From Trypanosoma brucei (lineage: Eukaryota), in contig CH464491.1 of assembly GCA_000002445.1 (NCBI GenBank), forward strand, positions 4,960,001-5,024,000: 64,000 bases of DNA. Reading direction: 5' to 3'. This document shows, piece by piece, positions 12,601 through 18,600 of this stretch; position 1 is the first letter of the stretch; each line of letters opens with the position of its first letter. Made by a program: the position numbers.

Positions 12601-15600
12601 AACATAGTAGATAGAAGGCACGAAGCAGCAGCCCTTTCCAGTAACTGCTTCTTCGCCATACGGCGGTTTTAATGGTTAACTTTGGAGGTTGGGAACAAGA
12701 ACTAGAAGCATAAGAATAGTAACAAATAATACGAATAGAATAAACAAGAGCATCTAAGTTTAAAATGGAAGATGTATCAAAAGAAAAACAGGAAAAACGG
12801 CCCCTAGATTCTCAGAATGTACATTATCGAAGCGTAGGATAAAGTTCATAGAATATGAAGCTGAATGGCCTGCGGAGATAGAAACCATTGTTGAAACGGA
12901 GTTTAGAATTTATAACTGAAAAGCTCGAGAAGGCATCAAAAGAGCACCTTATTGCACGCAAAAATGTGTTGATCCTACTGCGAAGATGGACGAGGATGTG
13001 GTTTTTATCTGATGGAGGGCCTTGATTCTAAATTGTGAAGAATACAGGAACCATAACCTAGAATGAATATGTTTTTTGTTTAGCACCACAGCAGTGAAGG
13101 TAACAAAGATTTTATATCTGTGGTCAGTAGTGTTTTGTTCTGCTTCTCAAACAAGACCAATTAAGTTCATATGTCTCGCCTCTTATTCACAGCATCAAAC
13201 CAGAAATAAACAGAATGTTTCAAGAGGTAGTAACAGCCATTATCTTTGCGGTAAGTTCAGCACAAGCGGCGCACGAAAACGTCAAAGAGATCAGAGATAT
13301 GTGCGGTCTATACGGACTTCTAATACAGCCCATAGCTGACTCACAGATTGTTTCCACGGACGGCACAACAAAAGAGAACCCAAGAGTGGAAATGCAAACG
13401 GTAATAAGGAAGAGTATCGACTTCAACCTAACATTTATAGCAAAACGAATAGCAGAGGCTCTCGCGCCAAAGAAACATGCACAAGACACTAACAAACTTA
13501 AAACAGAGCAATCAGATGTTCAAGTTTAATTTATAGGTCCATATCCCGCGACAATCAGAATTATGATTGAATCCTCAAAGGACCTGGTCGACAAAATGAA
13601 ACCTAGTGGCGATGTAGCCAAGAAATTTGCGTTGCAGCTCCACCCAGCGACCCAACTCAAACTACGAAAGGCTCTCGCTCACTTGACGACGGAAGCCCTA
13701 AAGAAGCAAGCAAGTTTAAATACTCTTCTGGGCACTATCACGGGAAAAAAACTGGCAATCCGGCAGAAAATGGTAGAGGCGCTCTACGGCCTGCAGCAAA
13801 ACCGGAACAGTCTGTCTCCGACATGGCGGTAGACACGCCCTACATAGTGGTACTGGTACCGACCGCATTCCAGCGGGAAGGCACTGACAGAGACAACACC
13901 TGTGAGAAAGCGGCGACATCATTCGCGAAGAAAGCAGGGTACGAATCAGCGACGGATATAATTTGCTTCTGTTCAGTACAAGCCAACAACGGTTGCAACA
14001 ACATTTGCGGCGAGGGAAGCAGCGAAAGCAACGCTATCCACAGCAGCGGTCAGGTACAAAAGGCAACAGAAGTGTGGACCACTATAGTCAAACAATGTGA
14101 CGCATTAAACGGGGGCAAACCGCCGCTATTAACACCGGCAGCCCTAACAGCAGAAGTAACAGCAATTTTTAGTCACCTAGAAAAAAACTACATTGCCCTA
14201 ACAGGGCCACCGACACACACCACCCTGGTAGGCAAACGCAGGCATTTCCTAGGGTTTCACACCATATACAACAGCTGACCGAGCTGCAAAGCTCCAGCAA
14301 ATACGGCAACCACAGCCGGCAAAGGGGTTTGCATTGACTACTCAGCCAAATGAGGGACGCAAAGGGAATACCATGGGTGGCATTAGTCAAACAAGCTGCT
14401 GGCGATTTAGAAGCGACACAAACAAACATCGGAGCAGCCAAGGAGCTAGTAGGCCTGGCAGAATCGATAAGAACAACCATGAAGGGGCTTTTTCAGATCG
14501 AGCCCTTTGTTAGCACTCATTCTTGCTCTCTGACAGCAAATGCTGACATAAGCCCTGAGCCTACAACAACTCTCCAACATAAATGCAAAGCGAAAAACAC
14601 AACAGCTGACGAATGCCCAAGCAAGCACTGAAATTATGACAAAGATAAGGGATGTACACCTAAAGCATGAGCAACAACCGCAACAGGAACAAGAATAGGG
14701 GATGGAGATACAGGGAGAGCAACAACGGAGAATGTAGGACTCACCGCAGGAGCCAAAGCTGCATGCGGTTGTATTGAAGAAAAGTGCAAAGATTCCAGTA
14801 TTCTTGTCAATAAGAAATTGGATTTTATGGCTTATGTCTTTGTTACTTTGGTATAATTTTAAAATTATAAGAATATTTTGGTGAATGTTATGAAATTAGT
14901 AAAATTTGATATATTTAACACTTCTTAATAAAATGTACAAATTCGTGAAATCATTGAAATTTTAAAAACATGGGAATTTGGAATTTTAGTGAAATGGGTA
15001 TGATAGTCACCACTGGGTATAAAGTATTACGGTGATAGGGTACGAAATATGAGTGATATTATAAAAGCTTTTAAATTATACTATACATTAGTTATGGTTA
15101 TAGTAATAATAATGATATTCATGGGAGCTTTATATGAGTGTGCGCATACTAATATTATAATAAGAGCAATGGTAAAGATTAACAATACAGACACAACATA
15201 GGCACCTATAATATTGAAAAGGGTGAAACAGGAGTAAATGACTTGGGGAAGTGGGAGAGAGCAAAAATATTGTTATTAAGGGAGAAAAAAGTAAATTGAA
15301 TATTTGAATTTTCAAGCACTTATACTACCATGGAAATAATTATACACAAGAAAATGAGGGATAGTGTAAAGAGTTAGACAGAGTGCTGTGCACAGGCAAA
15401 AAGAACCCGCTACGTTATCCGTGAAAGGAGAGGCAGAAGATGGAAAGGAAGGAAAGAAAATTTGGAATATATTGAAAAGGTACACGACACTACAATACAG
15501 AGGGGAAAAAAGAATAGGATGGGATGATGATTCATATTTCACTCAAAAATTGGTTGATACTTCTTCAGCGATGGTTGAGACTGTCGTTTTTGATATGGTG

Positions 15601-18600
15601 GAAGATCCTAATGTCTCGTTGTGAAGAAGCAGAAATAGGAAAAAATTGGGTAAGAGTGAGATAATAAAGAAGCCTTCTCACAAGTTATAAAAAACAGACA
15701 CTAACAGTTGTGTGAAACAGCGCAGTATTATTTGAAAGAGGATTTAAAAATAGAGCTACTAATGAACTATTGATGATAGTGAGGGGAAAGAAGCAGAACT
15801 GTTTAACATAGAAGATACATGCAGAGATGGAAGAATTGTGAGGGAGGGGGGAATAGGGGGTGGGTGTGAGGGTTGGAGCTGTGGGAGGGGGGGGGAAGGA
15901 TTAAGGTGGGGGGGGGTGCGGGGTAGTGGGGGGGGAAGGGAAGTGGGGGTGAGGGGGGAGGTGGTAGGGTGAGGGGGGAGGGGGGAGCAGGCGGCGAGTG
16001 TGGGGGGTGGTCGGGGGTGATGGGATGCGGTGAGGAGTGGAGAACCGCGCTGTGGCGTGAGGGTGGGGGGAGTTGTGGGGTGAGCTGGGGAGGAGGGGCA
16101 GCGGTGGGTGGAGATGCGGTGGGGGGAGTAGGTGCGGGCACGCCGTGGTGGGTAGGGGCGGGAAGCAGAGGTGAGAGGATGAGAGGATGAGTAGGAGAGT
16201 GAGAGAGTGAGGAGGTCTGATGAGGGGAGGGGACGTAGCAGAGAGAGGAGCGAGGGCGGCGGTGTGGCGAGGGAAGCAGAGATAGGTGAGGCAAGGAAGC
16301 GACCGCCAGGAAGGGGCTGGGAGCGCGTGGAGTTGGTAGTGCGGAGATATGAGCGGAGGGAGGGAAGAGTGACGGCGACGCGGCCTGGGTGAGAGTGCGA
16401 GGGGGTGAGCGAGAAGGGNGTGGGAGAGGTATAGTACAGGCGTCTGAGGAAGACGGCTGCAGAGTCACGTAGGAGGAGCTGACTATGATCCTGCTCAGGT
16501 GCTGGAGTGCGAGGATCGGAGATAGTCGCGGAACGAGTAGTGGTGTGAGTGCTGGAGCGCGAGAGGAAGTGTTGAGGAGGGGCAATNTGGAGTCGTGACA
16601 GCGNTGGTGCGGGCACGAGTAGTAAGAGCAGCGCGTAGCGAGTGAGACACCATCCACGAGCGATGTCTGGAGTAATGCGNCACGCGAGCGGTGCCGAGGT
16701 ACAGAGGCGTAATGTAGAATATTGGAGACCGTAGCGCGTCTGGGAGGGTTGCGTAAGCGGCGGCGTGTTNACGGCGTAAGGAGNGTGGGCGGTGTTCACG
16801 GCGATGAAGATAGCCAGATAGGTAGGGCAGNTTCTACAGAGAGAGTCATGGGCATGTGACTGAGAGCGAGACGAGTGAGAGGAGTCTTGTATACACGAGA
16901 GGGTGAGAGGGCGAGCGCGAAGGTTGATGCGGTGAAGTGGATCTAGGAGATACGTACATGATGTAGTGCGAGTAGAGTCTTCGCGTATATGTAAGCAGCT
17001 AGAGATGCCAAGGACAAACTATATGAGGGTTGGCAGGAGAGAGTTATGTCGATAGATGAGTGAATAGAGATCAGTGGAGAGGNNNNNNNNNNNNNNNNNN
17101 NNNNNNNNNNNNNNNNNNNNNNNNNNNNNNNNNNNNNNNNNNNNNNNNNNNNNNNNNNNNNNNNNNNNNNNNNNNNNNNNNNTATTCTATAAAAAGTTTA
17201 AAAAATTCTACGAACAACAATTATTATAAAATTTCATAAATTTCATAACATTGACCAAACATTCTTAAAATTTTATAATGCAAAAACGATTACAAATCCG
17301 CAAAAGCATCAGCCATCAGAACAGGTTTCTTATTTACGAGAAAAATGGAATTCTTGCAAGCATTATTTTCCAATTTGCATTCAGGAGCCTTTTCGCAGTC
17401 TTTTTGTTCTTTTCCTGTGCACTTTGAGTCAGTTTTTTTATCTTTTTCTTCATTCTCTTTTTCCTTTTCTGGCTCAGCTTTCACCTCCTTTTTCAACTCA
17501 CACTTTTTGCCCTCGTTTCCTTTGGGGTTAAAAACGCACCCATCTTTGGCTAGTTTTTTGCACGCTTCTTCGTCGTCCTTGCCTTTGGTATTGCATTCCT
17601 TCTCCTTTTCTTCTGTAGATATTGTGTCCGACGCGTGTTTCGCTTTTTCCTGTAGTTTCTGCATTCGGTTTTGAATTGCCTGCTCGCGCGCCGACCTGTA
17701 GTGAAAGTATAGGTGCATTAGGATATGAATGCTAGTGATCTTACCGAGTGTGTCGTCAGCTGGGCTTGGCCGCAGGTTATCATGTATTTGGTATGCGTCC
17801 ACTGCTTCAAATAAAGCTTTCTTCGCGTTGTCATCGTTCACGTATGCGTTTGTTATCTTCTCTTCCAGTTGTGTATCGCCGTCTGTCTCCGTCAGCTTTT
17901 TGCCAAGTAAATACCGTCGGGCTGGGCCTTTGAAGTCCTGGTGTGCTTTGAGTTCGGCGATCGTCTTTATGCTGGTCGCTGCCTCTTTTGCGGGCACCGC
18001 TGTTACTGCTTCGATCGCCTTCCCTAAGTACGGGCTGGCTGTTGTTGCGTCCTGCAGTGTGTCGTGTTTCGGTATTTTAAAGCCCGTGGCATCTACTGTG
18101 AAGTAGCCGGCCGCTAACTTAGGCACGTGACCCGCTACGTCGTTGCCTCTGCTGCCGTACGTTAGCTTGAAGCTCGATTGTGGTTGTGATATGTCGCAGT
18201 CTGTGCCCTGCCCGCTGTGTATCGTCTGACCATTCTCTTGGCCGCCGCTGTTGGTGTGCTTGATCCCTGTTGCTGTTATAACGCTGGTGGTTGTTTTTTC
18301 GTTTTTGACCTCGTCCCACGACATCTTGCACGTCGGTTGTTCCCTGTAGAGCTGTTGTTTGCCAACGATGACGGCGGTTGTGCCTGCGGCTGCTTGGAGG
18401 CAGCCTTTGTTGTCAGCCGACGCGTCGGCTTGACTTTCAAGGAATTCGCTAATGGCCCCTTGCAGACGCCCTATGTTTCGCGCTGCTGTTACTACCGCTT
18501 TGGCTTCTGTTTGTTGTATCCTCGCAGCTGCTCTGCCCGCTACCTCAGCATATAGCGACCAGACTGCCATTGTCGCATTGCTTAGTGGCTGGCCGCCTGT

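What the first reader, a model, noticed from the sequence alone, without database searches (positions are those of the whole stretch)
15000..17290. C-depleted purine-rich block and scaffold gap at the strand switch, with an orphan 70-bp repeat
The + oriented 70-bp repeat at 15000-15185 should be followed by a + strand VSG. Instead, positions 15790-17082 are a strongly strand-asymmetric G/A/T-rich sequence with G-runs (potential G-quadruplex formers), degenerate 'gagaggatgag'-like motifs and seven isolated N bases. This is followed by a 100-N gap and then the first - strand VSG. Either this is poor-quality or collapsed read sequence marking a misjoin between two oppositely oriented contigs, or it is a genuine unusual purine-rich element at a convergent strand-switch region. 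Both explanations matter for interpreting the array structure.
Basis: seen in the sequence. Interest (0 to 1): 0.6.

Follow-up and report, generated by a model that had tools for sequence, protein, structure and literature searches.

The report
Junk read tail at assembly gap
The odd G-rich block is almost certainly meaningless base-calling noise left at the end of a contig in the Trypanosoma brucei TREU927 reference, next to a gap probably caused by a retrotransposon, so it is an assembly artefact and not a biological element.

Summary
Window 15840-17082 is 49% G and 12% C, holds all seven isolated Ns of the 64-kb window, and abuts a 100-N gap. It lies between a + strand and a - strand VSG array of T. 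brucei brucei TREU927.

It is very unlikely to be genome sequence:
- An independent de novo Illumina assembly of the close relative T. equiperdum OVI has one difference from the window over 14694-15839. From 15840 it shares nothing with the window. It continues with 279 nt of ordinary AT-rich DNA and then the poly(A) 3' end of an ingi/RIME retroelement.
- The block matches nothing else in the window, in plasmids, in E. coli, in Rfam or in Pfam.
- It has no codon periodicity and no internal repeats beyond shuffled controls.
- G content falls steadily from 68% to 37%.
- AA and TT are strongly depleted (0.48 of expectation; elsewhere in the window at least 0.83 and 0.94).
- G-quadruplex motifs and the 'gagaggatgag' motif are no more frequent than the composition predicts.

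Best explanation: an unclipped low-quality capillary read tail at a contig end. The 70-bp repeat is "orphan" only because its downstream partner falls in the gap. Whether the two contigs are truly adjacent could not be tested. Interest is low.

The parts
15021..15186 (+). 70-bp repeat (VSG-upstream recombination repeat). Best unit 15097-15170, with degenerate flanks.
   Evidence: blastn matches to nine or more other copies in the window. nhmmer with a profile of the window's copies gives E=5e-17. The + copies lie at 635, 5125, 8259, 11733 and 15097; all copies to the right of the gap are - oriented.
15187..15839 (+). Genuine A-rich spacer of the kind found upstream of VSGs; the last trustworthy sequence of the left contig.
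   Evidence: There is one difference (15814 G/A) from T. equiperdum OVI contig L001 over 14694-15839. The sub-element 15535-15645 recurs upstream of other VSGs, at 12950, 30262, 53438 and 57765.
15840..17082 (.). 1243-nt G-rich, C- and T-poor block. Interpreted as an unclipped low-quality capillary read tail (base-calling noise), not genome sequence.
   Evidence: Homology to L001 ends exactly at 15839/15840. The block is no more similar to the L001 continuation than shuffles are. No blastn hit in the window, in plasmids or in E. coli. No Rfam hit and no Pfam hit. G falls from 68% to 37% along the block. AA and TT are each at 0.48 of expectation, below every other tile of the window. AA+CC+TT count is 58 against 117.5 +/- 9.1 in shuffles. 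No period-3 signal.
16419..16831 (.). Span that holds all seven single-base Ns of the window (16419, 16587, 16604, 16680, 16770, 16784, 16831).
   Evidence: The only other Ns in the 64 kb are the two 100-N gaps.
17083..17182 (.). 100-N scaffold gap of conventional, not measured, size. It probably hides about 280 nt of unique sequence, an ingi or RIME element, and the VSG that belongs to the 70-bp repeat.
   Evidence: for the gap. After the junction, L001 continues with 279 nt and then 27 nt identical to the poly(A) 3' end of the window's - strand ingi at 46604-46630.
17183..18834 (-). Start of the right contig: 107 nt of 3' UTR and then an intact - strand VSG (CDS 17290-18834; XP_829781 / EAN80669, annotated 'VSG, atypical').
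   Evidence: ORF. Pfam Trypan_glycop and Trypan_glycop_C. Exact match to the TREU927 protein.

Best explanation
Window 15840-17082 is not T. brucei genome sequence. It is the unclipped, low-quality tail of a capillary (Sanger) read that was left in the consensus at the end of a contig of the TREU927 5.26-Mb chromosome, directly before a 100-N scaffold gap.

Shown:
- The real sequence stops at 15839.
- In the closest available independent assembly, the locus continues with about 280 nt of ordinary AT-rich DNA and then a - oriented ingi/RIME retroelement.
- The second gap in the window sits inside an ingi.

Inferred:
- TREU927 has the same continuation.
- The dispersed ingi/RIME repeat is why the shotgun assembly broke here.
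- A read running off the contig end (for example a gap-closing walk on a template that ended, or whose signal collapsed) produced about 1.2 kb of calls dominated by the G channel. The calls drift toward more even composition, with sporadic Ns.

The 70-bp repeat at 15097-15170 is a normal VSG-upstream repeat. Its downstream VSG, expected to start between about 15750 and 17800, lies in the junk-plus-gap interval. The repeat is therefore orphaned by the assembly and not by biology.
For: Identity of the window. It carries exact matches to T. b. brucei TREU927 VSGs XP_829778-XP_829781 on a 5,261,801-bp record. The accessions flanking the block are consecutive (XP_829780 for 9971-11455, XP_829781 for 17290-18834), so the curators called no protein in the block.

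Independent assembly. L001 is T. equiperdum OVI CZPT02001491.1, a de novo Velvet/SSAKE assembly of Illumina reads (PMC5278650). It is collinear with window 8694-15839. It shows one difference over 14694-15839 and then no similarity at all. The local alignment score of the block against the L001 continuation is 7-11, against shuffle means of 8.4-10.6.

Continuation in L001. It ends with 27 nt identical to window 46604-46630. That site is the T10 tract plus 3' end of a - strand ingi, whose ORF 46875-48173 has C2H2 fingers and matches 'Tbingi protein'. The window's other gap, 48181-48280, also lies inside that ingi.

Signatures of noise:
- All 7 isolated Ns are in the block.
- G declines steadily from 68% to 37%.
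- AA and TT are each at 0.48 of expectation, against minima of 0.83 and 0.94 in about 200 other tiles.
- The longest A, C and T runs are 3, 2 and 2.
- AA+CC+TT is 58 against 117.5 +/- 9.1, and GG is 236 against 308.7 +/- 8.1.
- Repeated 8-12-mers, TRF hits and spectral peaks are no more than in shuffles.
- The period-3 signal is 0.9-1.1, against 7.9-16.2 in VSGs.
- No hit in the window, plasmids, E. coli, Rfam or Pfam.
Against: No traces, base qualities or read pile-ups were available, so 'low-quality read tail' is inferred from sequence properties and comparison; it was not observed.

The comparator is a different, though about 99.9% identical, Trypanozoon strain. A TREU927-specific insertion starting exactly at 15840 cannot be formally excluded.

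A junk tail of 1243 nt is long for one capillary read. It implies either a short good part or several stacked tails.

That homodinucleotide depletion is a signature of noise calling rests on my general knowledge. It was not calibrated on real failed traces here.
Confidence: 0.9

Rival explanations
1. The block is a genuine, TREU927-specific G-rich, strand-asymmetric element (G4- or R-loop-prone) at a convergent junction of two VSG arrays. It would have been inserted, or retained, relative to T. equiperdum.
For: The G richness and GC skew are extreme and real in the deposited sequence. The block lies where + and - oriented VSG arrays meet. The comparator is another strain, so a lineage-specific difference is possible.
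Against: It is absent at the exactly syntenic point of T. equiperdum OVI, whose flanks are about 99.9% identical up to the last base. It has no second copy and no related sequence in 64 kb of array. G4 motifs are fewer than the composition predicts (3 against 7.0 +/- 1.6), and there is no repeat unit. AA and TT depletion lies outside the range of all real sequence in the window. All isolated Ns are concentrated here, next to a gap. There are no TTAGGG units.
Confidence: 0.03
2. The block is a badly mis-called read of the real downstream sequence (spacer, ingi/RIME or VSG), so it still carries degraded genomic information.
For: Read quality normally decays gradually. The later part of the block (16400-17082) has a less extreme composition.
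Against: The block has no residual similarity to the T. equiperdum continuation. It has none to the window's ingi 3' part or to any of its roughly 15 VSGs (blastn word size 7, E<=1e-3). Six-frame Pfam scans find nothing. There is no period-3 signal. The change at 15839/15840 is abrupt, not gradual: there is one mismatch in the preceding 1146 nt.
Confidence: 0.04
3. The block is foreign or chimeric DNA (cloning vector, E. coli host or another contaminant) joined to the contig end.
For: Contig ends in shotgun assemblies sometimes carry vector or chimeric-clone sequence.
Against: No blastn (word size 11) match at E<=0.01 in 72,556 plasmids or in 5,426 complete E. coli genomes. A sequence with 49% G and 12% C, a smooth composition gradient and homodinucleotide avoidance is unlike any natural replicon.
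Confidence: 0.02

Closest known systems
Unclipped low-quality capillary (Sanger) read tails at contig ends of Phrap/Gap4-era assemblies
   Same: The block is adjacent to an N-gap and contains isolated Ns. One base dominates, with a drifting composition. It has no homology to anything and is absent from an independent assembly of the same locus.
   Different: It is unusually long (1243 nt). Read-level proof (traces, qualities) could not be obtained here.
T. brucei 70-bp repeats upstream of silent VSGs
   Same: 15097-15170 has the TAA/TGA-triplet run followed by the GT-rich core and ...AATATTATAATAAGAG. It aligns with all other copies in the window and has the same orientation as the + array.
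   Different: It is the only copy in the window with no VSG or VSG pseudogene within 0.6-2.6 kb downstream, because the contig ends 670 nt after it.
ingi/RIME non-LTR retrotransposons as breakpoints of trypanosome assemblies
   Same: The T. equiperdum contig breaks 27 nt into an ingi/RIME 3' end that lies 279 nt beyond the junction. The window's other gap lies inside an ingi. PMC2854126 notes that rearrangements mediated by ingi/RIME occur in repetitive regions that are hard to resolve in assemblies.
   Different: No ingi/RIME sequence is visible in the window at this gap. Its presence in TREU927 is inferred from synteny.
G-quadruplex-forming or telomere-like G-strand tracts
   Same: High G content with G runs of up to 9, and strong strand asymmetry.
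   Different: There is no repeat unit and no TTAGGG. G4 motifs are fewer than the composition predicts. The block is not conserved in a near-identical relative.

Membership tests
Assembly artefact: unclipped low-quality read tail at a contig end | Lies directly against an assembly gap or contig end | tested here: met
   The block ends at 17082 and the 100-N gap starts at 17083.
Assembly artefact: unclipped low-quality read tail at a contig end | Ambiguous base calls are concentrated in it | tested here: met
   All 7 isolated Ns of the 64-kb window lie in 16419-16831.
Assembly artefact: unclipped low-quality read tail at a contig end | Not reproduced by an independent assembly of the same locus; homology ends exactly at its start | tested here: met
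   T. equiperdum OVI contig L001 has one difference in the 1146 nt up to 15839 and no similarity after it. Caveat: this is a close relative, not TREU927 itself.
Assembly artefact: unclipped low-quality read tail at a contig end | Sequence statistics unlike genomic DNA (no homology, no repeats, no coding signal, drifting composition, homopolymer avoidance) | tested here: met
Assembly artefact: unclipped low-quality read tail at a contig end | Low phred quality and single-read coverage in the original assembly | not testable with these tools
   No traces, qualities or read alignments are available.
T. brucei 70-bp repeat | Sequence matches the repeat consensus (triplet-repeat run followed by a GT-rich core) | tested here: met
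   nhmmer E=5e-17 at 15097-15170 against a profile built from the window's copies; alignment.
T. brucei 70-bp repeat | Lies upstream of a VSG in the same orientation | tested here: inconclusive
   This holds for the other + copies, which lie 1348-2628 nt upstream of an ATG, and for the - copies checked (580 to about 2400 nt upstream). Here the expected interval, 15750-17800, is occupied by junk and gap.
G-quadruplex / G-rich regulatory element at a strand-switch region | G4 motifs or G-tract organisation beyond what base composition gives | tested here: not met
   3 motifs against 7.0 +/- 1.6 in bin-shuffles; GG dinucleotides are depleted (236 against 308.7 +/- 8.1).
G-quadruplex / G-rich regulatory element at a strand-switch region | Conserved at the syntenic position in close relatives, or recurring elsewhere | tested here: not met
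   Absent in T. equiperdum OVI at the same point. No related sequence elsewhere in the window.
Telomeric or telomere-like repeat | TTAGGG units | tested here: not met
   0 TTAGGG and 0 GGGTTA in the block.
ingi/RIME retroelement in the gap | Element 3' end with poly(A) just beyond the junction | tested here: inconclusive
   Met in T. equiperdum: 27 of 27 nt are identical to the window's ingi 3' end at 46604-46630. In TREU927 the position is hidden by junk and gap.

The most novel reading that the evidence does not exclude
TREU927 really carries a non-repetitive, G-rich, C-poor tract of at least 1.2 kb at the convergent junction of two silent VSG arrays. The tract is absent from T. equiperdum OVI and could act as a G4- or R-loop-prone boundary or fragile site.
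Probability: 0.03. Interest if true: 0.5.

Novelty: not a real feature. Interest (0 to 1): 0.06.

Why it matters
The value is practical. This stretch of a widely used reference, T. brucei TREU927, should be masked. It would otherwise produce false G-quadruplex or R-loop predictions, spurious long ORFs (346 and 284 aa on the - strand) and a read-mapping hole. It also gives a false impression of an 'orphan' 70-bp repeat and of a special element at a strand switch. The apparent convergent junction of the + and - VSG arrays rests only on a scaffold link across a gap of unknown size, which probably contains an ingi/RIME element and at least one VSG. Conclusions about array architecture at this spot therefore need a long-read assembly.

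Tried and rejected
Searches for other assemblies of the locus:
- Exact-protein look-ups used 17290-18834, 6531-7991, P0005 and the small ORFs 15388-15624, 13823-14278 and 14350-14631. None was on record. Only the VSG at 9971-11455 gave a contig, L001.
- Homologue searches with the flanking VSGs found only VSGnome entries with no contigs on record. Neither contig adjacency across the gap nor a second comparator could be tested.

Explanations tested and rejected:
- Vector or E. coli origin of the block: no match.
- Structured RNA: no Rfam hit at E<=0.1.
- Protein coding: the long - strand ORFs are compositional (P/S/T/L-rich, contain X, no Pfam hit); four of the six frames and both long - strand ORFs were scanned against Pfam without a hit; no period-3 signal.
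- Minisatellite or tandem repeat: TRF scores of 60 or less are matched by 61% of shuffles.
- Telomere-like tract: no TTAGGG.
- Degraded copy of the true continuation: no residual similarity.

I did not scan the bacterial or metagenome DNA collections, because they do not cover trypanosomes.
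Full report
**What the window is.**
The window is a silent VSG array. Intact + strand VSG ORFs lie at 3335-4816, 6531-7991 and 9971-11455, and a + strand pseudogene lies at about 13215-14800. From 17290-18834 onward, all VSGs and VSG pseudogenes are on the - strand. Four of the ORFs match annotated proteins of Trypanosoma brucei brucei TREU927 exactly (XP_829778-XP_829781 / EAN80666-EAN80669) on a record of 5,261,801 bp. From my own knowledge, this genome was produced by capillary shotgun sequencing with manual finishing. 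For the sister T. b. gambiense project the same institute describes Phrap assembly, gap closure by oligo-walking and Gap4 finishing (PMC2854126). The accessions on the two sides of the finding are consecutive, so no protein was annotated in between.

**Checking the observation.**
- Composition. The block is real. Positions 15840-17082 (1243 nt) are G 49.1%, A 22.8%, T 16.0%, C 12.1%; the window is G 20.4%, A 26.0%, T 32.6%, C 21.0%. It is therefore G-rich with C and T depleted, not A-rich or T-rich.
- How exceptional. G reaches 0.64 in 300-nt windows, against a maximum of 0.33 anywhere else.
- Gradient. G is 68% and C 3% at 15840-16000. G then falls steadily to 38% at 16800-17082.
- Ns and gaps. 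All seven isolated Ns of the whole window lie at 16419-16831. The 100-N gap is 17083-17182. The only other Ns are a second 100-N gap at 48181-48280, whose flanks look normal.
- 70-bp repeat. It is genuine. The best unit is 15097-15170 (nhmmer E=5e-17 with a profile of the window's copies), with degenerate flanks from about 15021 to 15186.

**The decisive comparison.**
- The comparator. The VSG at 9971-11455 is also encoded, residue for residue, on contig CZPT02001491.1 of T. equiperdum OVI (L001, 8666 bp). That assembly was made de novo from Illumina reads with Velvet and SSAKE (PMC5278650), so its sequence is independent of TREU927.
- The breakpoint. L001 is collinear with window 8694-15839. 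Over 14694-15839 there is a single difference (15814 G/A). At 15839/15840 similarity stops completely.
  - Window: ...GGAAGAATTGT|GAGGGAGGGGGGAATAGGGGG...
  - L001: ...GGAAGAATTGT|CATGAAGTTGAGAAAGTTAAAATAG...
- No residual signal. The breakpoint coincides to the base with the change in composition. The block keeps no trace of the T. equiperdum continuation: local alignment scores are 7 and 11, against shuffle means of 8.4 and 10.6.

**What should follow 15839.**
L001 runs 306 nt past the junction. The first 279 nt are ordinary AT-rich non-coding DNA. The last 27 nt are identical to window 46604-46630. That site is a T10 tract followed by GGAATTTTCTTCGTGCC, which is the poly(A) tail and 3' end of a - strand element. 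The element's ORF (46875-48173, - strand) has C2H2 zinc fingers and matches 'Tbingi protein' entries. The 24-mer occurs once in the window. So in T. equiperdum a - oriented ingi or RIME begins about 280 nt beyond the junction, and the short-read contig breaks there. The window's second gap also lies inside an ingi. I infer that the same dispersed repeat is why the TREU927 assembly broke here.

**Properties of the block itself.**
- No homology. It has no blastn hit (word size 7, E<=1e-3) to anything else in the window, including about 15 VSGs, their flanks and the ingi. It has no match in 72,556 plasmids or 5,426 E. coli genomes and no Rfam hit.
- No coding. No Pfam hit was found in four of the six frames or in the two long - strand ORFs. 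Those ORFs (346 and 284 aa) are P/S/T/L-rich by-products of a G-poor - strand. The period-3 signal is 0.9-1.1 times background, against 7.9-16.2 in three VSGs.
- No repeat structure. Repeated 8-, 10- and 12-mers are no more frequent than in shuffles that keep the local composition, whereas real segments of the window exceed their shuffles. TRF hits, including the 'gagaggatgag' stretch at 16167-16214, score 60 or less, and 61% of shuffles do as well. No spectral peak exceeds the shuffles.
- No excess of G4 or telomere motifs. G4 motifs number 3 against 7.0 +/- 1.6 expected. There is no TTAGGG.
- Same-base avoidance, the one strong non-random property. AA and TT are each at 0.48 of expectation, while about 200 tiles elsewhere in the window never fall below 0.83 and 0.94. 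AA+CC+TT is 58 against 117.5 +/- 9.1, and GG is 236 against 308.7 +/- 8.1. No run of A, C or T exceeds 3, 2 or 2.

In my experience, and this is not tested here, one dominant channel, drifting composition, sporadic Ns and avoidance of repeated calls are what a base-caller produces from noise after the signal is lost.

**The 70-bp repeat is not a biological orphan.**
The + oriented copies lie at 635, 5125, 8259, 11733 and 15097. Every copy to the right of the gap is - oriented. The distance from repeat to the next ATG is 1348-2628 nt in the + array and 580 to about 2400 nt in the - array. The partner VSG should therefore start between about 15750 and 17800, which is inside the junk and the gap. 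The gap size (100 N) is a convention, not a measurement.

**Explanation and its limits.**
The best explanation is an unclipped low-quality read tail left at a contig end (confidence about 0.9).
- Shown: the breakpoint, the absence of the block from the independent assembly, the lack of any homology, and the abnormal statistics.
- Inferred: the trace-level cause, and that TREU927 shares the T. equiperdum continuation.
- Weak points: the comparator is another strain, and 1243 nt is long for a single read tail.
- Not tested: whether the left and right contigs are truly neighbours, that is whether the convergent strand switch exists. No other assembly containing the right-hand VSGs could be retrieved.

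**Rivals.**
- Genuine TREU927-specific G-rich element: 0.03.
- Degraded read of the real downstream sequence: 0.04.
- Foreign or vector DNA: 0.02.
Each is argued in its own section of this report.

**Verdict.**
This is an artefact of the reference assembly and not a feature of the genome. Interest is low, apart from the warning to mask 15840-17082 and to treat the array junction as unresolved.

Noticed in passing
window 46604-48280: The 3' part of a - strand ingi retroelement is inserted into a - strand VSG pseudogene. The T10 tract (the poly(A) complement) is at 46604-46613. The C2H2-finger ORF at 46875-48173 matches 'Tbingi protein'. The VSG_B domain of ORF 45878-46984 starts right at the insertion point, about 46606. 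The window's second 100-N gap (48181-48280) lies inside this ingi, and VSG-like - strand sequence resumes at 48281.
   Followed up: partly
window 13879-14360 (compared with L001): 76 of the 80 differences between TREU927 and T. equiperdum OVI over 7.1 kb fall in one 482-nt patch (about 16% divergent) inside the + strand VSG pseudogene. The remaining 6.6 kb differ at about 0.06%. This looks like a segmental gene-conversion (mosaic) patch in a silent VSG.
   Followed up: partly
L001 8361-8666: The T. equiperdum OVI contig carries 279 nt of unique AT-rich sequence that is absent from the window. It then ends 27 nt into an ingi/RIME 3' end. This is probably the sequence missing from the TREU927 gap.
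   Followed up: yes
window 15759-16799 and 15803-16657, - strand: Two long ORFs (346 and 284 aa, P/S/T/L-rich, containing X from Ns) exist only because the - strand of the junk block is G-poor. A gene caller could mistake them for genes.
   Followed up: yes
window 15535-15645: A short conserved element (about 70-76% identity) recurs in the spacers upstream of other VSGs, at 12950-13042 (+), 30262-30164, 53438-53349 and 57765-57692 (-). It may be a conserved piece of the VSG upstream region.
   Followed up: no
window 57310-57321: A single TTAGGGTTAGGG dimer lies inside the - strand array. It is compatible with chance: 18% of shuffles give at least one hit when one mismatch is allowed.
   Followed up: partly
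window 17183-17290: The 107 nt of 3' UTR of the - strand VSG at 17290-18834 that precede the gap do not contain the conserved TGATATATTTTAACAC-type 16-mer. A close variant of that motif (tgatatatttaacac) is seen after the + strand pseudogene, at about 14907-14921. TREU927 annotates this VSG as 'atypical'.
   Followed up: no
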